Position numbers and translations under genes: made by a program. A DNA stretch of 63,208 nt, the filler included, from Rhabdomonas costata (lineage: Eukaryota): NCBI GenBank assembly GCA_019059605.1. It is 28 parts of 28 records of this genome, joined end to end, with 100 filler letters (N's around TTAATTAATTAA, not from the genome) between each part and the next. Parts side by side here need not be neighbours in the genome. Positions count along the whole stretch, not along the records: positions 56,529 to 58,688 come from JAHMHO010005172.1; 27 more parts are not named here. One strand, written 5' to 3'. The notes beneath the pieces are model-generated. The model did no database searches. It was not told the DNA's origin and worked only from the letters and a program-made list of their open reading frames with translations. How positions within the stretch are numbered: position 1 is the stretch's first letter; every line of letters begins with the position of its first letter. Shown in pieces: positions 13,190 to 61,205 of this stretch.

Positions 13190-14020
13190 CTGAAAAATAA
13201 GAAGAAACACAAAGCGCGCAAATCAGAAGAAACGCGTGCAGAGAAAGCACCAGCTAAAGACCAGTGACATGAGACCCTGAGGGGCAAAGCTCGAAACCTT
13301 TGCATGCAAGGTCCATTTCCCCCTCCCTTCCCTGGTGTTGGTGTTCGCAATGGCATTTCAACGGACATTAGAAACGTCCTCAACAAGTGCGTCGTCTTTT
13401 GTAACAGCCACCCCGATTGAAAAAGTGACAGCGAAGCTCTCTAAGAAAACACCTCACGCAAGGTTCAAATAAATTNNNNNNNNNNNNNNNNNNNNNNNNN
13501 NNNNNNNNNNNNNNNNNNNTTAATTAATTAANNNNNNNNNNNNNNNNNNNNNNNNNNNNNNNNNNNNNNNNNNNNTTGTGTGGGTCTGGGCAGCGCTCAG
13601 GGCAGACCAGCCACCGGGCATGAAGTACCCCCAAGACCCCAACGGCATAGAATCGCAAGTTAAAGAGGACCACACCCTCTCGAGTTTTATTGCGCCAATA
13701 CATCAGTCAACCACTTTCACCGTCAGGACAGTACGCGACAAATGAAATGTATTTCACTTTCAAACACCTTAACAGCCGATGCGCACCAACTGAAGTGAGT
13801 GGCCAACGCTGAGCACGCCAGCTCCGTGGATGGGAAACCGAAAATGGTGTGAGTCCCCTCTGCCCATCGCATCTTCACAAACGCATAACTTCTAAATCGA
13901 CCTTTGAATCCTCACGACACCTAGAACCTCTCGTGGGGGAGACGTTTATCACCCTCTCCCCAGGACAGAGTATCGAACAACTACAGGAGAGGTCTATGAA
14001 AACGAGCGCAAGCCGTTTAA

Positions 14021-15560
14021 TTAGGTCGCAGAGGGTGCGCCTCGCCAGCTCACGACCGACACAAATGCAAGGGGGTCTGTTTCTTCTTCTACACTGCGGA
14101 GGCCGGCCATCCAGCGGCACACTGACTGTAGGACAAGGCTTTGCGGCGGGACAAAGGGGCGCCCAGTCTGGGTTACTACGGCCAGAAGATCCTCTGCTGC
14201 AGCTGTTGCTGAGGAAGCCCCAAGCCCGCCACATAGCAGCACCACTACACTGGCGTGCTGGACCATATAAGGTCCACCCCGACTATGACCCCGCAGCCTT
14301 GCTCCCCACTTCCTGAACCCCAGCGCGTACACAGCGGAAGCCAGCGCACAGCCCTGGGACAGAAGTCTCTCAGGGGGCGACGTGACAGGGGCTGGGGAAG
14401 GGCATGCCCTCAGGATAGTCCAAACCTGCAACAACTGGCTCACCAGCTGGCACGCCGAGGCCAGCAGCAGTGGGCAGCAGGTGACTCCGCTTCGTGAGAC
14501 GGAGTCAGCTAGGTGGACAAACACAGAGGAGCAAATCACGGAAAGACTGCAGCACTGCCAGAGCTCGCAGAAGCGCAGTAGGTCCAGCCCCTCTCCTAGG
14601 TCGGTCAAGGATCCACCACCACCGACATCCGACGCAAGGGAGCTACGCAGAAGGTCCGCAAAGGGAGGGGCTTCAGGACCAACAGCAGAGCAAACCCACC
14701 CAGTAAACAACCCGCTGCGGAGGCACAAGTGCCGGACCTGGGCCAGGGTCTGCCAAAGCACCCCATGAATCAGATTGGAGGTCAGAAGGTGCTTGGGCAC
14801 CTCAGAGATGCACAGCGGTAAGGGAATGAGCTCCACGCCTGGCCGAACCTGCAAAGGGCACAGAAAGAGTGTTTGAAAACATAAGCATGTGTGCAAACTC
14901 CACGTAGCTACCCGGCCAGAGGGATACCTTGCAGACGCAGGCATCCTGGCAGGTGCATTGAAGGAGAAGGAAAAGTGTCATGAGACCGTGCAGCGACACT
15001 TATCCACAATGTAATGACAGAACCATACAGTCACGTGCTGCTCTGTGTCTGCATCATTGGCTTTCTTTCGGCATGCGACAAGTGATGCAGGAATACCTCC
15101 TGGCCCCACGCCGGAACCACAGCGACATAAGCCTGTGCGGCCATTTTGCGGCAAAGCAGGCGGCGGGAGGCAAGCCCCAGGGCCCCCCGCAGCCGCCCTG
15201 CGACTACAGTGGCCACTGTAGAGGCCCTCAGGGGGCTGGTGGTTGCAATGACATCGCTTCGCATCGCAGAAATGGCGCAAAACAGGGCGCTCTGGCCCAG
15301 GCCGCCTGGGCCCACCTCCGTTGAGGCCCCCCGCAGGCACGCCAGCAACGCCACCACGGGAAACGCGAAGGGCTCGGTAGAGGAGGAGCAGGTGGAGGCG
15401 GAGGACGGCCTACTGGCGGGGCTCAAAGGCTCGACAGGACAGCCCAAAAGGTCCAGCACCACGGCAGTGAGACGGGGGTACTCGGCGAAAAAGGTGAGAG
15501 CGTCTGGGCGGTCGTCCGAGCCTGATGACGAGAATCGGGGAGCAGTGTGGAACTGGATCC
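14021..15560 (-). CDS. Hypothetical protein, long exons at about 15560-15094 and 14850-14021
   Basis: Long GC-rich Leu/Ala/Ser frames with splice-like borders (GAG|gtattc; ttgcag|GTT). Confidence 0.45.
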
Positions 15561-15879
15561 ATTAAGGAGCACCACCACCAATAACAACTTTTACAGTTCG
15601 TCGGCCAAAATATATGTTCAGCTTGAGCCAACGTAAGGCCCAACCATACCCACAATGAGAGAACCATGAAGATCAAAAATACACGTCAGGTCAAAGGGAA
15701 AGGGAGAAGCCAACACAACCCAAACACACCCACCACNNNNNNNNNNNNNNNNNNNNNNNNNNNNNNNNNNNNNNNNNNNNTTAATTAATTAANNNNNNNN
15801 NNNNNNNNNNNNNNNNNNNNNNNNNNNNNNNNNNNNGTGGGTTTTTGTGAATTGCGTGAGTCCTTTAATGCGAAATTAA

Positions 15880-18102: not shown

Positions 18103-20257
18103 TGTTGTAGGAATATTCCACTGAAGGAACTTTCATTCCTTCAGTGGAATATTCCTTCAACAGCACCTCATTGATCTCCCCTGATTCAAAAACAAGCGCG
18201 CCTCCAGTGTGGATCAAGTCACGAAGAACTGCCAGAACCGAAGTTGCAGCAGTAGTCAACACATTCATCACAGATTCAGTAATTTCTTCCTCTTGGTGCT
18301 GGTGCGGGGAAAACCCTAGAGAGGGAGGAACTCGCACCGTAATCGCACGGCGAACGATCGATGAAGGAAGACGCACTGAGCAGGGGGATACGATTAGAAT
18401 GGATCGAGGTGCGTGGGCAGCGGAGAGGGCGTCCAAGACTTGCACGACAGCAGAGGTGCAGTCTTCTGCAAAATTCTGCATTACCAGTATACCGTTTGCG
18501 CGGACTTGAGAGCAGACCACACTTTCCAGCTCTTCTGGATAGAGTTCAGTGAGGTTAACAGGGGTCAGAGATGGTGCACCAGAGGACTTTCCAACAGGCC
18601 CGCGTCGCCTGATTATGGAAGAGACTGATGCGCTCACTTCGGACGGGCCCACAAGTAAGACAGGAAATATTAACTCCGAGGAGAGAATGCTTCTCGTCAC
18701 TTCTACAGATGACTCCCACAAAGCACGGGTGAGGGGTTCTCCCAGCACTACTCTTATGAGATGTTGGGCTGAGAGAGTAAGCTGATCAGGCCAGAGGGCA
18801 GCCTGAATAATCATGCGGTTGAAGTGCCCGGTGTTGCTGAAACCGTGAATTTCAGATTCGGGTCTGGATCCGACCCACCAGTTCCCCCACGTTTTATCGT
18901 TCCTCGCCATCTCAGCAGGGAGTCCACTAAACTGAGTAGTAACTGTAGACAACGCTCGAACGTTGAACAGCAGATCCAAGGGAAGCCACTTGAGTGGAGT
19001 CTCGGAAATCCCATCGGTTATTCCGTCACTAGACGCGAGCCGAATAACCCCCTGACAAATCGCTTGAGAAGCCACAGGACCACAGATGGCAAGCACTTGC
19101 AGCAACGCAGACTGAGTTGCAGTTACACAACAAACTTGCACCGCAAGGCAAAACAAAAATGGGAGCTTCTTCCGAGCAGGAAGCTGCCGCAACACCGCAA
19201 GCGCAATGTTCAGTTTCAGTCTTGAAAACTGATCGCAGTCTCCCCTTCGGTCGTGAGCTGTTGAGCAGGTTTCCCTTAAAATCTGAAAGAGTTTTCCAAT
19301 GGAGTCCTCTGGCAACCAAGACACAACACCAAGGCAGGAGGACCAAAGAAGTTCGCACCAGCGACTGAAAAAGTCGCTATCAATCGGTCGTTTTAGTTTT
19401 CTCACGGATGGATATCGCTCTACATCATTACAATCATTGTCTTTTGCCAAACACGAAAGTCCGGCGCCCACGACCAAGATGGCATTGCACAGCTCTTCAA
19501 AAGGATTGTCATCAGTGCAGGAAGTACCGCGCTCGATCTGTTGTTCAAGTCTGGAAAGAAGGATTTTCATCTGTAAGAGGCGCTTTGTCCGGGTTTTTGC
19601 TTCTCCTGCAGACTGAAGTGCACGACTTGCTACTAGCGCGCTGTTTGCCGAAAAGCAGGCAGCAACATGATTGAACACAAACTTTGGCGTAACACACCAA
19701 TTCATCATGTCAGAAAAGGCAAAATATTCTTCTGTACTGTCTACGGGTGCCACGTCGATCAACACAAAGAGTCTAGCCTTCACGCGGGTAATCTGCACTG
19801 ATTTCTGAAACGCAAAAACCACCCGCGACAGGGAGGTCCATGTGGAAAAGGACCAAGCTTCATATACCACTGCTCCAAAGCCAGAGGCTAGACCCCCGCG
19901 AATTACGGCGTCAACACTCTGCTCAACTGCAGTGTCGCAACGGAGAACAAGGCAGGGTGTCTGTGCTTCAACAATCCATGGCGTAGCGATGTGGCAAGGA
20001 TCCATGACAACGCAAATGGCTGAGACATTGCGGGTGACGTAAAGATTAAGAAGACTGTGCTGATCACTCACAAATCCGCGAGCACTGTTCATTTCCTTGT
20101 CCAACGCAAATGACTGGGCATTTCCTGCAACAAACTCCATTCCAGTGGACAAGTCAAACAGGAAACCTGCCTTTAAGCATTCGACACATTTGGCGATAGG
20201 ACCGGAGAACAGCTCCTGCCGACCTTCAGGTTGCAGCGGGCCCAAGTAAGTTAACAA
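18103..20257 (-). CDS. Highly divergent dynein heavy chain-like protein fragment (AAA5-AAA6 region), intronless
   Basis: Over 700-aa open frame spanning the contig; PLKWLP...FSGLPAEM...WGNWW...PE...FNRMIIQAALWPDQL...IRVVLG...PVLLV follows the DHC C-terminal pattern P.WL/W..W....PE/FQKL..LR.LRPDR/LG. Confidence 0.65.
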
Positions 20258-20780
20258 CCCAACCNNNNNNNNNNNNNNNNNNNNNNNNNNNNNNNNNNNN
20301 NNNNNNNNTTAATTAATTAANNNNNNNNNNNNNNNNNNNNNNNNNNNNNNNNNNNNNNNNNNNNTTGTGGACTATTTTGTTAGTTTGGTCACCTGCTTCG
20401 AACATGGGCAACTTTGCAACGAATGCTTTTTTTCTTTTTCTTCTTTTCTTTTCTTTTTGTTTCTTTATAAATCCACTACCCTGTTCTGCGTAGTCACAAA
20501 AGTTTGACTCGGTGGTCATCTGCTATACTGTTTTGTTTGACGGATGAGTGGAGCATGAAGTCTTGGCGACAGAAGCTAAAGTTTCGCATGAAAAATGTGG
20601 TTGAATCAATTCACCGTGTGCCAGTTGTATGAAGGCTTCGGGTAAACACGTTGTCAATTTCAGTTATGGCCTTTGGGGCTGGTTTAGCGGGATTGGGCCA
20701 TTTCATACCTCTGTTCTAATGTGTATTGGGCACTGCCTGCCCTGCTGCTCTTCTTTGTCGTCCTTCTTTCGGTGACTAGG

Positions 20781-54026: not shown

Positions 54027-56876
54027 GTATGACCCGTGGGTGGCTGAGGCAAATGGAGGGGTAGAGAGAGCCATTGTGGGCCCCAGCAAGTGAGAGAGTG
54101 CCAAGATCCGAGAGGATCCGTGTTTAAGTGCATCTATGGTGAGCCACCATTGTCAAGTACACCACCACNNNNNNNNNNNNNNNNNNNNNNNNNNNNNNNN
54201 NNNNNNNNNNNNTTAATTAATTAANNNNNNNNNNNNNNNNNNNNNNNNNNNNNNNNNNNNNNNNNNNNGAGACCGTGAGGAGGACCTTCAGGGAGAGCAG
54301 GTTGTTGAGGAGCCTGCGGCACCGCGCAGAGGCCTCCGGGAAAGCCATGCACTCGTGATAAAGTGTTTTTCACTAAGAGGAAAATGTGGAGTGTGAGGAA
54401 AAAAGAGAAAAAAGGTGGAAGGAGGGAAGAGAAGGGATAAAGAAGTCCTCGGCAAGTAAATAAAGAAGGAAACAGGAGACGGTAGGCAGCAAAAACAAAG
54501 GGAACACACAGAGTAGCAATGGAAGCAGAACAAAAGGGCCAGAGTGCCTGCAGAGGAAGCAGCGACCAACACTGGAAACGTCACCTAATGGAAACGAATG
54601 CGTTACTGTGTTGAGTGGTCCTTAGGTTCACGGCACGCGACCGGAGAATGTATCTGGAGTCTGCTGGTTGATGGTAGGCACGGCTGGGATTCTGAGGGGT
54701 CCTTGGGGCATTTGAGCAAGCTCCCTCAATGGCGATGAGTACGGCGCGGAGTGCTGGTGAATATCCTGTGCTCGCGGCGATGGAAAATCGAAGGCGACTT
54801 TTGGCACTATTTCTGGCTGCTTGCCAGCGGCCAGGGAAAAGCAGAAAGAAACCAAAAATTGGTACAAAACTAAAGGGGAAATCGGAAGGGGGAATTTCCC
54901 CCAATCGGTCCATTCGTTCAAGGGGTGGTTGGCGAGGTTCGGTGCAAAATTGCTGGCCTGTCAGGACTCTTCGCGGTTCCTTCCTTCCTCTCTGCGACAC
55001 CCACAGAACAGCGAAGGCGGCCATAGGGACATCGGCAACTCTCCTTTTGTCCATGAGCAAAACGAAATCAGGCCCATGGCAAACCCAGATATGGGGTGGA
55101 GGGTGTGGCGGACGTCCGAGGGGATGGCTCACCTGATTGAGGGCGAGCTCCCCCTTCGAACCTTTTGGTATCGTCCCTCACTTCGGGGAACTTGGAACAA
55201 TCGAACAAACACACGAGCGCAGACAAGCACGAAAAGGGAGAGAGAGAGAGCAGAGAAATCGCGAGAGAGCACACGCCGTGCCGGACAGGAATGGGGAATG
55301 GCAGGTCAAATTCGTGGCGGCTCGACTTCTTCCATAACCGGTGGACCGGACGGGTGAGGGGGCTGAGTTGGGCCCATCTATACAGGCAAATATCACAGGA
55401 GACCTGCCAATCCACCACACCACAACAATACAACAACAACGACAACAAACGCAACCAACAAATGGAAGCCCATCAACGTGAAAGCACACTCATTTTCCCC
55501 TGAGGTGTCCCCCCCCCACGCACTGCAGTCTCTTCAACACGTCCCCCGTGATCAAAAAGCAAGGCGAGCGGTAAAAAAACCAACGCCAACGAAATGGTAA
55601 AAAGGAAAGGCAAGACCGGGTGCTGGAAAAGGACAATTGCCAACAAAAAAATATATTCCAGCCATTTTGAGCATAGCTACTGAATATGCCGGCTGGCTTG
55701 AGAGGGGTTGAGTAGATACGGGAAACGATGCATTGGGGATGAAGGTGGTGGTGGCGGGAGGCAGATTTCGGTAGACAAACCAGGGCCAGAAGTTGCACAC
55801 GAGAAACTGGATATACAAACGAGGAGGCGCTCTTCTCACTCCAATTACAAAGGACAGGTCCCGACGACCCCTCTGTGACATTCAAGGTGTCATGCTGGCA
55901 TGTTGGTGTGTCACCTTCGTGCTCTGCATTTGCTTGCGCGCGGGGTAGTATACTGAAGACCGGATGGAGCCCCTTCTTCGCAGAAGAGTTGAGACCAGAG
56001 CCTTCCCCTCCGCCCAACACACTGCACAAGTTGAGCCATGGAATAATAACAATAAAAATAAACTCTGCGCAACCTGCCTCTGGCGCGCGACCATGTTGTC
56101 TCACGCCCCACCTCCCGAAAGGCTCTGAGTTGAACGACAAACTGTACACTTGCGCACACATACACAGTATACGAGGACACCGCAGGTGTACCGCAAGTGT
56201 TCGACAGCCTCCAATGCATCTGCGCGAGAAAGAAATTACGATCTAATGTCAACCGCCTCACTTTCGTCTCGTGCCCGCCCCTCATCGCCGACGAGCATCG
56301 AACTCACCACACAAAAAGTTCACACCATAAATCCCTCGAACCAAAACAACAATATGATACGAAACACCAAACAAAAAACCACAGTCTACACCATCAGGCA
56401 AAGTTATAAAATGTCAGCATCGACAAACNNNNNNNNNNNNNNNNNNNNNNNNNNNNNNNNNNNNNNNNNNNNTTAATTAATTAANNNNNNNNNNNNNNNN
56501 NNNNNNNNNNNNNNNNNNNNNNNNNNNNTGGGGGGGGTTGGGCTTTTGCGCTCCTCGTGCTTGCTTTTGCATGCTTGACTGCAGTGCATTTTGTGGTAAT
56601 TGCTTAGGTGACTGTTGACGCTGTACCTTTCTCCTTTTTACGGTCTTCCTTTTCGAGAATTTCCCGTTCACTCTTCTGATTCCGACTAATAGTTTTCAGA
56701 CAGTGCGATGTTCTGTCTTTCGCCGAAACTTGCACCTGCTTTTGTGTTGGTACCCACTGGTCACTAGTCAGTGCCAAAGCATTTGCTCCCTATGCTCCCT
56801 TGGCACGGAACAGGGTTGCATGCACGTCCCTCATTTGACTCGCATCGTCCATTTCCTGACTTGCCCTTCCCTGTAG

Positions 56877-58549
56877 ATCTACGACGCCGCGTTCGCCATC
56901 AAGAACCGAATTTATGGCAACCGCATCGTGCTTTTCGCCCCACTGTACCTATCGAACCACTGCGTGAACCAGTGCACCTACTGCGCCTTCCGCCACTCCA
57001 ACAAGGTGTCCTTGGAGATCACCCAATCCCCTGTTTTCTCAATTCCCGGTGCACCGGGGGAGAGTGGTTGTGGATTGGTTTGTAGTTCATCGTTGATATC
57101 ACGAGCTTGTTGGACCGCGCGTGAATGGCAAAACAAACATGTGTCCTTTTTCTTCGTTTCTTCGTTGCCACTCCCTTCCTCATATTATTCCCATTGTGTG
57201 CTGGTTCGCTTGCCGCACAGCGAAGATTCCCCTTCCCAAAATAAAGCGCCAGTAAAGGTTCAAAAAAGTGTTTCATTTTTGGCTTCCTTGATTCGCCAAA
57301 CAAAAGCGTCCATGTATGGTGTGATATCATGGTGTGGCCTGCAAGGAACACTTCTCGTTCATGCCTTGGTTTCCACCGAAGCCGTTTCCTGTTGTAGCAA
57401 ACTCCCCCAGCGCCAAATGCACCTCCCAAAAATTAACATTCAATTGTGCACAGAAAAATAACGCTCCCTTAAGAAGATTCGCACTACGGTAGTGCTGGAG
57501 AGATTGTAGGCGCAAGGGAGAGGTTTTGTCCTTCGGAGAACTTTTTTCTGTCCACGGTTGTTTGAATCCTGTTCTGCTTGCCTGAAAAGGTGACATGGTT
57601 CCGAAGCGCACATGCATCAGGCACATGCATCTGCGTGCCTTCCTCAGGAAATTGCTCGCAACGTGCTGACCCATGACCAGGTACCTTTCCGTCTTCAGTG
57701 TTCTCAAAAGAAAAGTAGAACAGAGGCTGACAGTCTCTGAACAGTTTAAACAAGCAGGTCTCTCACCCTTCTTTACCACGGTACCGCACTTCGTAGCACA
57801 CAGGAAACCCACCACATCCTCACAGCAACAGCAAGAAAATCAGCAGTGGGGCTTGTAAACTCTGAGTCTTCAGAGACAAAGTCTTCCACAATCAAATGCT
57901 TGTGGAGAGGATGGGCATGTTCCGAGGAGAGGTCATTTGGTCTCGCAGGGGGTAAGGTGGCGATGACCGCGTCCCAAAATGAAGTTCTCTCGCAAGGGGT
58001 CATGCGCGCATAAAGACGACACGCATGCTGGGAGTACGGGGCCCCATTTGGACTCATGTCATTTTCGGCCGATAAACTGCCTGAATTCCTTCCTTCCTCT
58101 GTTGTAAAAGTGCGGTGCTGTGGTCGTCAGAGGGCTTTGCTTGTTTCTTGTTCGCCTCCACCACAACCGAACAACCGACCTCCGTCCCCCCGCTCCGGTA
58201 CTTTCCCAGATCCGCGAGCAGATCTCCGTGCTGGTCTCCCAAGGCCACCGCCGTGTGCTCATGCTGACCGGGGAGAGCCCAAGGTGGAAGCCGGCGTTCG
58301 CGTGTGACCAGTCTATTCCCTCTTTTGTGTACTGTGCCACGAAGTGCCAGAAAGTGCACCTCGCGGCCGAGGTGGGGTGACAGGCTGCAGCATTCGGCTG
58401 TCACACCACATTCGGCTGCTCGGGCGCACCGCTTTTTGCACTTCTTGTGCGGTGGGCTATGTTAGCTGCCGGCTCTTTGCTCAGGTACACCTTTGACGAG
58501 CTTCTCGAGGCCATTCAGGTGGCAGCGGGTGTGGTGGTGCCCCCTGCAG
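56877..58549 (+). CDS. hydG: [FeFe]-hydrogenase maturase HydG (radical SAM), internal fragment; exons 56877-57005, 57648-57680, 58210-58283, 58485-58549
   Basis: Spliced: IYDAAFAIKNRIYGNRIVLFAPLYLSNHCVNQCTYCAFRHSNK|EIARNVLTHDQ|IREQISVLVSQGHRRVLMLTGESPR|YTFDELLEAIQVAAGVVVPPA; CxxxCxxC motif; all introns GT-AG and in phase. Confidence 0.88.
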
Positions 58550-59039
58550 GTCCATGTCTGTGACCCCCCCCCCACAAATTCCTGCGCACTCTTCATCACT
58601 CTAGTTCTTCCCCTTTTCCCTCGAGGACCAAATAAATGCCGTGCCTTTCCATCAGCACAGTGTTCACGCGACCTGCAGACAAACCAACNNNNNNNNNNNN
58701 NNNNNNNNNNNNNNNNNNNNNNNNNNNNNNNNTTAATTAATTAANNNNNNNNNNNNNNNNNNNNNNNNNNNNNNNNNNNNNNNNNNNNGTGGTGGGTGTG
58801 GTTGGGGTTGGGGGTAGTGTACGAGCGGGTGGGTACAGCCAGGCACAGAGTGGGACCAGGTAGGGGGTCCTTTTTCCTCCTTCTCGCCGCGCGCTAAAAT
58901 CTCCGCGGCGGCTTTTTCTTCAGGCTTCAGGTAGTGCTGCTGTGGAGGGCGTGACGCGGGCGTGTGTCTTGATGGTTGAGGGCGGTTCCATTGCGTGCCT
59001 ATCTGAAGCTGATAGTGCGTAAGCAAAAGCCACTCACGG

Positions 59040-60630
59040 AACGTTTGCTTGCTGGTCCTTCCGGTTTGTCTCTGTGCAGCCGCCTGCCGCAGAACGTATG
59101 GCGCCGCAGGTGCCTCTGCCTGCCCCTGCGGTTTATTATGATCACTACGATGCGGCGCCCGTGCAGTCTTTCCGGGTGAGTGTGTGTGTTTGTGTGTGTG
59201 TGTGTGAACGCGCCAAAACACCAGCAGGTGTTCAGAACAAGCAGCACAAGGACACGCCACAGCACACCGCGCAATATATGTGTACAGGAGGAAGGGCTGA
59301 TTTGTGACGAATCGTGTGAAAACGCTGTGATGGGATGCCCATTTGTGATGGGACGCCATAAGAAGTCAATGAAGTTTTTGCTCGCAGATGGATGTGATCC
59401 ATTCTACAATTTTCAGCTGAAACCGCACTTTCTTTTGCTGTGCAAGTGTAAGATGCTTCCACGCAGTTGCCTGTTAAGGCTGATATTACGGCGGGGGATT
59501 TTGTTGTCTGAACGTAAAGAGGCAGTCATTTCTATTAATGTGTGTGTGTGTGTTGTCGAGGAGTTGTGGCCGTGGTGCCGCAGCCCGTGCTTCGCTTGCG
59601 TTTCTCTGCGGAGGATGGCTCGGCGGGCTGTGCCTCCCCTTTGGTATACTGCTGGGTGGAGCTCCACCTGCAGCAGGAAATTCAGGTGAGTTGGCTCGCA
59701 TTGCGAACAATTGAATGCCCTCCGGCGGATTGTATTTTGGTGTCCGCGTTGCAACATTCCTGATAAAAGCAGATTCTACGTTAGCACCGGACTGCTTTTC
59801 TTGGTGTAGTAGATGCTGCTTGTTCTCATGTGTCAATTGACTTTCAGCTGTGGCTCTGTTCAAATACTGTCTACAAAATCAACCAACGGAATAAATCGTG
59901 ACATGTGTTTTTTCGTGTGCGTTTGGGGTGGGGGGTGCCCCAGCTCACCCACGTGATTTGCGTCACGGATGCCGAGGAGGTCACCCTGCCTGCTCTGGCG
60001 GAAGCGCAAGTCAGCATAAGGTGGTGCAGCCCTGAAGGCAGCTCTGAGGAGGGCGGAACCCCGCTGAGGACCTTTCACATTGACCTGACAGGGGTTCTTG
60101 AGAATTCAGGTCTGACCTTGACGCCATTCCCAGTATTTTCATTGACATTTTATTTCGCTGCAAACAGGGGTCTTGATAGCTTGCATTTTGTATTAGTTTG
60201 GTTCATTGTTGTTGTTACGGGGTTGCTCGTTCCATTAAAGTTAAACAGGGAATTTGGGACGGACGAGCAAACCCAGGTCTTCTTTGTAGGTATTGCCTCC
60301 TCTCCCTCTCCCTCTCTCGGCGCCCCTCTCTATTGCTTCTTTTCCAGGGGTTCCAAACTCCCTTCTTCTTTTGCGACTCCTGCCACCAACAACTAACCGA
60401 GTGAAGCCCACGCTGGGAGGCAGCTCGCGGCCAGCCTCTCGTGGCGAGCCCTCCGTCTGCATCGCCTCCCTTCATGCCTTCGCAGCGGCACCTCCACATA
60501 CGCCCTCGGTGGAGGAGAGCCCTCACCGCACTTCCGTTGGCCGTCGGCGATTGTCGGAATGCTTGGCTTCCTTGTCAGAGCTTGCTGCCGGGCGGGCTCA
60601 AACCTCTGGGGAGCTCCGCGGCACCGTGTG
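59040..60630 (+). CDS. Multi-exon hypothetical protein
   Basis: Exon-like blocks ending CGG|gtgagt (59175) and CAG|gtgagt (59685), followed by cccag|CTCACCCAC (59944). Confidence 0.35.
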
Positions 60631-61205
60631 ACGTCGGAGCCGTTGCTGCATTTCGTGTTAAGAGTCTTAATCGCTAATGGACCGCCGAGTATTGTATGTG
60701 TGCGTACGTGCTGTCTGCGAAGGAAGGGGTCTCACTTGTATCGAGCTGACTTCTTTCCGCATCTTTTGCCTCTGTGTTCTGTCCATGTGTACCTGCTGAT
60801 TGCGCTTGTTCATAAACTGTTCGAGGGAGATGTGCGTGGCGTATCATGTAGCCTTATTTGATGAACGGATACCATCGGATTCCGTTCACTCTGGTCAGCC
60901 TGTGGCGCTTCCAGTATGTCTTGAGGCTACATGATACCCCACACCACCNNNNNNNNNNNNNNNNNNNNNNNNNNNNNNNNNNNNNNNNNNNNTTAATTAA
61001 TTAANNNNNNNNNNNNNNNNNNNNNNNNNNNNNNNNNNNNNNNNNNNNGGGTCAAGGTGGACGTAACGTTCCCTCTGCAGCTGTGCAAATATAGACGGGT
61101 GGGCGAAGAAACAGGCAGAGAGAACGTTACGTCCACCTTGACCCTCCGATCAAACACGGAAACCAACTCGGCGGTTTCACAACTGCAAACGTGTCGGCAG
61201 CACAC

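What the first reader, a model, noticed from the sequence alone, without database searches (positions are those of the whole stretch)
56877..58549. Intron-containing HydG: a nuclear-encoded [FeFe]-hydrogenase maturase
Seen: four in-phase GT-AG exons, including a 33-bp micro-exon, join into a radical-SAM protein with YGNRIVLFAPLY.SN.C..C.YC and GHRR.L.LTGE.P.YTFD. Established: HydG makes the CO/CN ligands of the H-cluster and in eukaryotes occurs in H2-producing lineages. The spliceosomal introns rule out bacterial or symbiont contamination. Inference: the host matures an [FeFe]-hydrogenase. The paralogue ThiH is the alternative, but the IKxRIYGNRIVLF and GHRR motifs fit HydG better.
Basis: partly seen in the sequence, partly recalled or inferred. 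Interest (0 to 1): 0.85.

Follow-up and report, generated by a model that had tools for sequence, protein, structure and literature searches.

The report
Euglenid nuclear HydG gene fragment
This is a real, intron-split piece of a eukaryotic gene for HydG, an enzyme that helps build the metal centre of hydrogen-producing enzymes; it comes from a colourless euglenid flagellate, a group not so far reported to have this machinery.

Summary
On a 2160-bp contig (window 56529-58688), four exons with AG|..|GT borders (56877-57005, 57648-57680, 58210-58283, 58485-58549) join into 100 residues. These are letter for letter residues 112-211 of a 518-aa transcript-derived protein, labelled Rhabdomonas costata in EukProt.

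That protein is HydG, not ThiH:
- HydG model 499.5 bits (cut-off 312); ThiH model 273 bits (cut-off 380).
- It has both the radical-SAM CX3CX2C motif, encoded by window exon 1, and the C-terminal CX2CX22C motif.
- It sits inside the HydG clade in a 72-row tree.

Its HydG belongs to a strongly supported group with green algae, chromerids and Paulinella. It does not group with the other Discoba (AU p 0.0003).

Two limits apply. The window is 28 unrelated contigs joined by linkers, so there is no gene neighbourhood. No whole genome was available, so HydA, HydE and HydF could not be sought in this organism. That the host matures an [FeFe]-hydrogenase therefore remains an inference.

My literature searches found no report of HydG or a hydrogenase in euglenids. 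I rate it a new member of a known kind, of moderate interest.

The parts
56529..58688 (.). The contig that carries the gene fragment (2160 bp, GC 52.3%), bounded by artificial linkers at 56429-56528 and 58689-58788
   Evidence: N-run map. The tetranucleotide profile is typical of the other 27 contigs (z -0.13, r 0.84).
56529..56876 (+). 3' part of the upstream intron, at least 348 bp, ending in AG at 56875-56876. No earlier exon lies here
   Evidence: All three frames carry stops and none matches the preceding residues of P0001.
56877..57005 (+). Exon for HydG residues 112-154, including the radical-SAM cluster motif CX3CX2C (C140, C144, C147)
   Evidence: 100% identical to P0001. On its own it scores HydG 58.6 bits and ThiH 49.9 bits.
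57006..57647 (+). Conventional GT..AG intron, 642 bp, phase 0
57648..57680 (+). 33-bp micro-exon for residues 155-165
   Evidence: Needed for the exact match of the joined peptide to P0001.
57681..58209 (+). Conventional GT..AG intron, 529 bp, phase 0
58210..58283 (+). Exon for residues 166-189 and the first two bases of codon 190. It holds the invariant G177, H178, R180, G186 and P189
58284..58484 (+). Conventional GT..AG intron, 201 bp, phase 2
58485..58549 (+). Exon for the last base of codon 190, residues 191-211 and the first base of codon 212
58550..58688 (+). 5' part of the next intron, starting with GT and at least 139 bp long. The contig ends before the next exon

Best explanation
Window 56877-58549 is a fragment (codons 112-211 of 518) of an expressed, intron-rich nuclear gene for HydG of the heterotrophic euglenid Rhabdomonas costata.

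Shown here:
- The exon-intron structure.
- Identity to the transcript-derived protein.
- HydG family membership of that protein, with both iron-sulfur cluster motifs.
- Its place in the eukaryotic HydG clade.

From established knowledge of HydG: the N-terminal radical-SAM cluster cleaves S-adenosylmethionine, and the resulting radical splits tyrosine. The C-terminal cluster with its extra iron turns the fragment into an Fe(CO)2(CN) unit, which HydF and HydE build into the 2Fe part of the H-cluster of an [FeFe]-hydrogenase (HydA).

Inferred only:
- The protein does this job in R. costata.
- HydE, HydF and HydA are also present.
- The short basic N-terminal extension (about 25 residues before the part that aligns with bacterial HydG; 7 K/R in the first 32 residues, no acidic residue before position 27) sends it to the facultatively anaerobic mitochondrion.
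For: Splice model:
- All borders are AG|..|GT.
- The 100 joined residues equal P0001 112-211.
- P0001 is named EP00906_Rhabdomonas_costata / RCo052057.

Family:
- TIGR03955 (HydG) 499.5 bits against a cut-off of 312.15, covering profile positions 6-468 of 470. ThiH 273.3 bits against 380.
- True bacterial HydG genes show the same sub-threshold ThiH scores, 286-354 bits.
- PDB: HydG 4wcx 457 bits and 4rtb 328 bits; ThiH 7pd1 172 bits.
- CX3CX2C lies at residue 140 and CX2CX22C at 433-459. These cysteines are invariant in a 30-sequence alignment, and 24 invariant columns fall within the window-encoded residues.

Tree of 72 rows:
- HydG is separated from ThiH at 100/100.
- The query sits in a 5-row clade (100/100) inside a 25-row group with Viridiplantae, chromerids and Paulinella (100/99).

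Host origin:
- GT-AG introns. The contig's GC (52.3%) and 4-mer profile are typical of the other 27 contigs.
- The organism's paper reports assembly GC of 51.63%, conventional GT/AG introns, survival of a month of anaerobiosis, and pyruvate:NADP+ oxidoreductase (PNO) as the only pyruvate-oxidising enzyme (passages of PMC8219788).

Co-occurrence:
- I looked up 20 of the 150 HydE/HydF-like representatives. The named ones came from Edaphochlamys, Paulinella micropora, Chromera, Chrysophaeum, Pelomyxa, Naegleria, Cantina, Seminavis, Anaeramoeba and Pygsuia.
- All of these except Pygsuia also have a HydG. For Paulinella micropora this rests on my inference about which HydG row is its own.
Against: - HydA, HydE and HydF of this organism were not seen: there was no genome to search and nothing in the window's other 27 contigs.
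- A 2023 study found no HydA in Euglena gracilis, only a Nar-like protein, and barely detectable H2 (passages of PMC10407231).
- The main text of the R. costata genome paper describes its anaerobic mitochondrial metabolism without any mention of hydrogenase (0 hits).
- The window holds only a fifth of the gene, and the C-terminal motif is known only from the transcript-derived protein.
- Mitochondrial targeting rests on composition alone; no predictor was run.
Confidence: 0.75

Rival explanations
1. Orphan HydG: the gene is real and expressed, but the organism has no HydA (as reported for Euglena gracilis). The enzyme then serves another purpose, or is a relic on its way to loss.
For: No HydA was found in E. 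gracilis (PMC10407231). The R. costata paper's main text does not mention a hydrogenase. Patchy sets occur in eukaryotes: Thalassiosira is reported to have HydA without HydEF or HydG (same paper).
Against: All catalytic motifs and 24 of 24 invariant columns in the window-encoded part are intact. Four unnamed relatives at 75-87% identity keep full-length proteins with both motifs, which argues for purifying selection. No HydG function outside H-cluster assembly is known to me (recalled). Named eukaryotes with HydG that I could check also have HydE or HydF.
Confidence: 0.13
2. The contig and the transcript come from another eukaryote in the culture or sample, not from R. costata itself.
For: Introns exclude bacteria only. 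The HydG groups with photosynthetic lineages rather than with other Discoba. The published decontamination targeted prokaryotes (passages of PMC8219788).
Against: The sequence is found in both the DNA (the window) and the transcript-derived protein set. The contig's composition is typical of the other 27 contigs. The 5-row clade is a long, separate branch (stem 0.46) that is not nested in any named alga. The closest named sequence is only about 62-64% identical.
Confidence: 0.08
3. It is ThiH, the tyrosine lyase of thiamine thiazole synthesis, and not HydG.
For: Automatic names of many relatives say 'ThiH' or '2-iminoacetate synthase'. Exon 1 alone favours HydG by only 8.7 bits.
Against: ThiH model 273.3 bits against a cut-off of 380, HydG 499.5 against 312.15. 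The roughly 85-residue C-terminal domain with CX2CX22C is present. ThiH is separated at 100/100 in the tree. The spliced peptide scores 165 and 125 bits on my HydG profiles and 68 on ThiH, whose profile was built from only 4 sequences.
Confidence: 0.01

Closest known systems
HydG of green algae and streptophyte algae (for example Chara braunii P0046, Chlorella variabilis HYDG P0126, Chlamydomonas spp. P0033 and P0050)
   Same: Nuclear, intron-bearing eukaryotic HydG with about 59-63% identity over nearly the full length. Same two cluster motifs. They share a 100/99-supported group with the query clade.
   Different: The algal proteins work in plastids (recalled). R. costata is described as having no plastid ancestry, and its protein has a short basic presequence. 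The query clade is sister to this group, not nested in it, on a stem of 0.46.
HydG of other Discoba: Naegleria gruberi (P0165) and Stygiella incarcerata (P0113)
   Same: Same supergroup as euglenids. Hosts have aerobic or facultatively anaerobic mitochondria, or hydrogenosomes. Full-length HydG, 52% and 56% identical.
   Different: They do not group with the query. Holding the query clade together with these two costs 109 log-likelihood units (p-AU 0.0003).
Bacterial HydG with solved structures (PDB 4wcx, 4rtb)
   Same: Aligned from residue 38 to 517 with 4wcx at 457 bits. Radical-SAM and C-terminal cluster cysteines are conserved.
   Different: At most 50% identity to the 80 best bacterial loci. 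Bacterial genes have no introns and no N-terminal extension, and lie in hyd operons, for example hydA..hydG-hydE-hydF in locus L005.
ThiH (E. coli b3990; PDB 7pd1)
   Same: Radical-SAM tyrosine lyase with the same N-terminal fold and the same CX3CX2C region.
   Different: ThiH has no C-terminal auxiliary-cluster domain. It scores below its family cut-off (273 against 380) and forms a separate clade.

Membership tests
HydG (TIGR03955, [FeFe]-hydrogenase H-cluster radical SAM maturase) | Radical-SAM CX3CX2C motif near the N-terminus | tested here: met
   Encoded by window exon 1 (C140, C144, C147 of P0001) and invariant in 30 aligned HydG.
HydG (TIGR03955, [FeFe]-hydrogenase H-cluster radical SAM maturase) | Whole-protein score above the curated equivalog cut-off | tested here: met
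   P0001 scores 499.5 bits against a cut-off of 312.15, profile positions 6-468 of 470. The window's own 43-residue exon 1 reaches 58.6 bits, which cannot pass a whole-protein cut-off.
HydG (TIGR03955, [FeFe]-hydrogenase H-cluster radical SAM maturase) | C-terminal domain with CX2CX22C for the auxiliary cluster | tested here: met
   Residues 433-459 of P0001 and the same motif in its four closest relatives. C433, C436 and C459 are invariant. This part of the gene is not on the window contig.
HydG (TIGR03955, [FeFe]-hydrogenase H-cluster radical SAM maturase) | Groups with HydG and not with ThiH in a tree | tested here: met
   72 rows under LG+C20+F+G4. The HydG/ThiH split is supported at 100/100, and the query lies inside the eukaryotic HydG clade (88/95).
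HydG (TIGR03955, [FeFe]-hydrogenase H-cluster radical SAM maturase) | Occurs together with HydE, HydF and an [FeFe]-hydrogenase in the same genome | not testable with these tools
   No genome is held. The window's other contigs give nothing. Indirect searches found no R. costata HydE or HydF but could not have seen them reliably.
HydG (TIGR03955, [FeFe]-hydrogenase H-cluster radical SAM maturase) | Tyrosine lyase activity giving CO and CN ligands | not testable with these tools
   This needs a biochemical assay.
ThiH (TIGR02351, 2-iminoacetate synthase) | Whole-protein score above the curated cut-off | tested here: not met
   273.3 bits against a cut-off of 380. True ThiH of three bacterial genomes score 493-508 bits.
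ThiH (TIGR02351, 2-iminoacetate synthase) | Ends after the TIM-barrel, with no auxiliary-cluster domain | tested here: not met
   P0001 continues about 85 residues beyond the ThiH match (which ends at residue 431) and carries CX2CX22C.

The most novel reading that the evidence does not exclude
Rhabdomonas costata and an unnamed clade of four relatives carry a complete, mitochondrial H2-producing system (HydA with HydE, HydF and HydG). That would be the first in Euglenozoa. Its maturase came by eukaryote-to-eukaryote transfer shared with green algae, chromerids and Paulinella, rather than by descent within Discoba.
Probability: 0.35. Interest if true: 0.65.

Novelty: new member of a known kind. 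Interest (0 to 1): 0.45.

Why it matters
[FeFe]-hydrogenase maturases mark eukaryotes that can really make an active hydrogenase. Euglenozoa are not on the list of such lineages in the papers I could search, and Euglena gracilis is reported to lack HydA. A HydG in a plastid-less euglenid with cristate, facultatively anaerobic mitochondria has two consequences:
- It makes hydrogen metabolism in euglenids a concrete, testable proposal.
- It adds a data point to the debate on how anaerobic enzymes spread among eukaryotes, because this HydG groups with those of photosynthetic lineages and not with those of its discobid relatives.

Tried and rejected

Searches that led nowhere:
- The search for related loci with the single protein found no relative. 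With alignment A1 it gave 80 bacterial loci.
- tblastn of Shewanella marina HydA, HydE and HydF (from L005) against the window gave only chance-level hits (E of 2.9 or more). The one exception was HydE touching the HydG exon through the shared radical-SAM region.
- Search for HydEF fusions (bacterial HydF query, 'longer' lengths): 42 hits, almost all bacterial fusions, two alga-like (P0224, P0226), none from R. costata. The word index barely reaches eukaryotic HydF at about 28% identity, so this says nothing about absence.
- Exhaustive search with the alga-like HydEF P0226 listed 150 representatives. I looked up names for 20 of the 150 and none was R. costata. Members hidden inside 50% clusters cannot be seen this way, so again this is no evidence of absence.

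Literature (search listings only unless stated otherwise):
- HydG + euglenid: 1 paper, an algal Fe-S review. In the passages I read, it mentions euglenids only in other contexts.
- HydG + Euglenozoa: 2 papers.
- euglenid + hydrogenase + HydF: 1 paper.
- Euglenozoa + hydrogenase + maturase: 10 papers, none on euglenozoan maturases judging by title and abstract.
- Rhabdomonas costata + hydrogenase: 0 papers.
- Within PMC7052976: 0 hits for hydrogenase, HydA, HydG or maturase.

Readings rejected:
- ThiH, on scores, domain and tree.
- Bacterial or symbiont contamination, on the introns and on at most 50% identity to the best bacterial HydG.

Full report
**What the window is.** The 63,208-base window is not one stretch of a chromosome. 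It is 28 pieces of 2152-2166 bp, each separated by the same 100-bp linker of 44 N, TTAATTAATTAA and 44 N. The finding lies on one such piece, 56529-58688 (2160 bp, GC 52.3%). What stands next to it in the window is therefore not genomic context. No whole genome is held for the window.

**Checking the observation.** Reading 55800-60200 and cutting by coordinates gives four exons:
- 56877-57005 (129 nt)
- 57648-57680 (33 nt)
- 58210-58283 (74 nt)
- 58485-58549 (65 nt)

Each exon is preceded by AG and followed by GT. The complete introns are 642, 529 and 201 bp, with pyrimidine-rich 3' ends. The contig starts inside an upstream intron of at least 348 bp and ends inside a downstream one of at least 139 bp.

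The joined exons give 100 codons plus one base. A search with exon 1 alone (43 residues) against longer proteins returned a 518-residue protein, P0001, at 100% identity. The whole joined peptide equals residues 112-211 of P0001 exactly, and the spare G fits Gly212. P0001 is a transcript-derived protein, so this is independent confirmation of every splice site, including the 33-bp micro-exon. The only refinements are the exact borders of exons 3 and 4, and that the last two introns split codons 190 and 212.

**Whose gene it is.** The database labels P0001 EP00906_Rhabdomonas_costata_P037050, RCo052057. I read passages, not the whole text, of the paper on this heterotrophic euglenid's draft genome and transcriptome (PMC8219788). 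It reports:
- a very fragmented assembly (N50 1194 bp, GC 51.63%);
- many conventional GT/AG introns;
- proteins predicted from the transcriptome under 'RCo' numbers;
- cristate mitochondria that are facultatively anaerobic;
- survival of a month of complete anaerobiosis;
- pyruvate:NADP+ oxidoreductase as the only pyruvate-oxidising enzyme.

The HydG contig's GC and tetranucleotide profile are typical of the other 27 contigs (distance z -0.13, correlation 0.84).

**HydG or ThiH.**
- Exon 1 alone scores 58.6 bits on the HydG model and 49.9 on ThiH, which is suggestive only.
- The full protein is clear: HydG TIGR03955 gives 499.5 bits (cut-off 312.15) over profile positions 6-468 of 470. ThiH gives 273.3 bits (cut-off 380) and its match ends at residue 431.
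- Five bacterial HydG genes score 286-354 bits on the ThiH model in the same way, while true ThiH of three of those genomes score 493-508.
- I built local profiles from 38 eukaryotic HydG (the query's own clade left out), 25 bacterial HydG and 4 ThiH. They score the spliced 100 residues at 165, 125 and 68 bits. The ThiH profile is thin.
- Against solved structures, the best matches are HydG 4wcx (457 bits, residues 38-517) and 4rtb (328 bits). ThiH 7pd1 gets 172 bits.
- The radical-SAM CX3CX2C motif lies in window exon 1 (C140, C144, C147).
- These cysteines are invariant in a 30-sequence alignment, and 24 invariant columns fall inside the window-encoded residues.

**Phylogeny.** The tree has 72 rows:
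- 43 eukaryotic HydG, picked by hand for names and spread from the hit lists;
- 25 bacterial HydG, picked from the 80 loci;
- 4 ThiH (E. coli and three genomes).

Quick trees under LG+G4 and under the mixture model, and the careful tree under LG+C20+F+G4, agree on the nodes that matter:
- HydG is separated from ThiH at 100/100.
- Eukaryotic HydG form one clade (88/95).
- The query pairs with unnamed P0003 (100/99) inside a 5-row clade of unnamed sequences at 75-87% identity (100/100).
- That clade is sister to 20 rows from chlorophytes, Chara and Coleochaete, Vitrella and Chromera, and Paulinella, within a group supported at 100/99.

Forcing the query clade together with the discobids Stygiella and Naegleria costs 109 log-likelihood units (p-AU 0.0003). 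I named that group after seeing the tree, although it is the taxonomic expectation. Bacterial HydG are at most 50% identical, against 52-64% for named eukaryotes.

**How it most likely works.** Established for HydG (family knowledge, recalled): the radical-SAM cluster generates a 5'-deoxyadenosyl radical that cleaves tyrosine. The C-terminal cluster with its extra iron captures the products as an Fe(CO)2(CN) unit. HydE and HydF then build this into the 2Fe subcluster and deliver it to HydA.

Shown here is only that the R. costata protein has every sequence feature of such an enzyme, and that its gene is spliced and expressed. Two further points are inferred:
- It serves a hydrogenase in this organism.
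- It is mitochondrial. About 25 residues precede the part that aligns with bacterial HydG. They hold 7 K/R in the first 32 residues and no acidic residue before position 27, and the four relatives are similar. No predictor was run.

**The open point: HydA, HydE and HydF.** I could not test this.
- The window's other contigs hold nothing, but they are about 60 kb of an assembly of roughly 107 Mb.
- A search for HydEF fusions with a bacterial HydF query returned 42 hits, with no R. costata protein and only two alga-like fusions. This shows the method hardly reaches eukaryotic HydF.
- An exhaustive search with one of these, P0226, listed 150 representatives. Names for 20 of the 150 included none from R. 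costata, but sequences inside 50% clusters are invisible to this approach.
- The look-ups did show that named eukaryotes with HydG also have HydE or HydF: Edaphochlamys, Paulinella micropora, Chromera, Chrysophaeum, Pelomyxa, Naegleria, Cantina, Seminavis and Anaeramoeba. For Paulinella micropora this rests on my inference about which HydG row is its own. This is the basis for expecting the same here.

Against that expectation, no HydA was found in Euglena gracilis and its H2 output was barely detectable (passages of PMC10407231). The R. costata paper's main text also has no word on hydrogenase; its supplements were closed.

**Novelty.** None of my searches of the held library turned up HydG or hydrogenase maturases reported for euglenids or Euglenozoa. 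For most papers I saw only listings; passages were read for PMC8003979, PMC10407231, PMC8219788 and PMC7052976. The protein sequence is already public, unannotated. This is a new member of a known kind: a standard HydG in a lineage where it was not expected, with an unexpected affinity to the HydG of photosynthetic lineages.

**Verdict.** HydG identity is near certain. A functional hydrogenase system in the host is probable but unshown. Interest is moderate (0.45).

Noticed in passing
window 1-63208: The window is 28 contigs of 2152-2166 bp joined by identical 100-bp linkers (44 N + TTAATTAATTAA + 44 N). Adjacency in the window carries no biological meaning.
   Followed up: yes
window 13576-15736 and 18103-20264: These two contigs are the compositional outliers among the 28 (tetranucleotide distance z 2.37 and 2.02). 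The first also has the highest GC, 57.9%. They might be contaminant or organellar pieces.
   Followed up: no
window 58789-60948: The next contig shows what looks like another split gene. An ATG near 59100 opens a frame that ends at a GTGAGT donor near 59176, inside a (GT)n run. A further open stretch near 59580-59690 also ends at GTGAGT.
   Followed up: no
P0001 and tree rows: The R. costata HydG clade is sister to the HydG of Viridiplantae, chromerids and Paulinella (100/99). A grouping with the discobids Naegleria and Stygiella is rejected (p-AU 0.0003). This hints at eukaryote-to-eukaryote transfer in a euglenid described as never having had a plastid.
   Followed up: partly
P0130/P0230/P0378, P0061/P0274, P0079/P0231: Locus tags suggest that hydG lies next to hydEF or hydF in several eukaryotes: Edaphochlamys HYH03_000123, 000124 and 000126; Chrysophaeum CTAYLR_003954 and 003955; Paulinella micropora g3521 and g3523, where the species of g3521 is my inference.
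   Followed up: no
P0056, P0070; P0187-P0204: Single proteins that fuse maturases. HydE-HydG fusions of about 810 residues score above both family cut-offs. Many HydF-radical-SAM fusions of 750-920 residues, apparently bacterial, also turned up.
   Followed up: no
P0007-P0020 and others: Dozens of 80-170-residue 'ThiH' proteins from metagenomes are 79-84% identical to exon 1. They look like single exons of eukaryotic (algal) hydG called as genes. P0002 visibly reads on into an intron after the exon.
   Followed up: no
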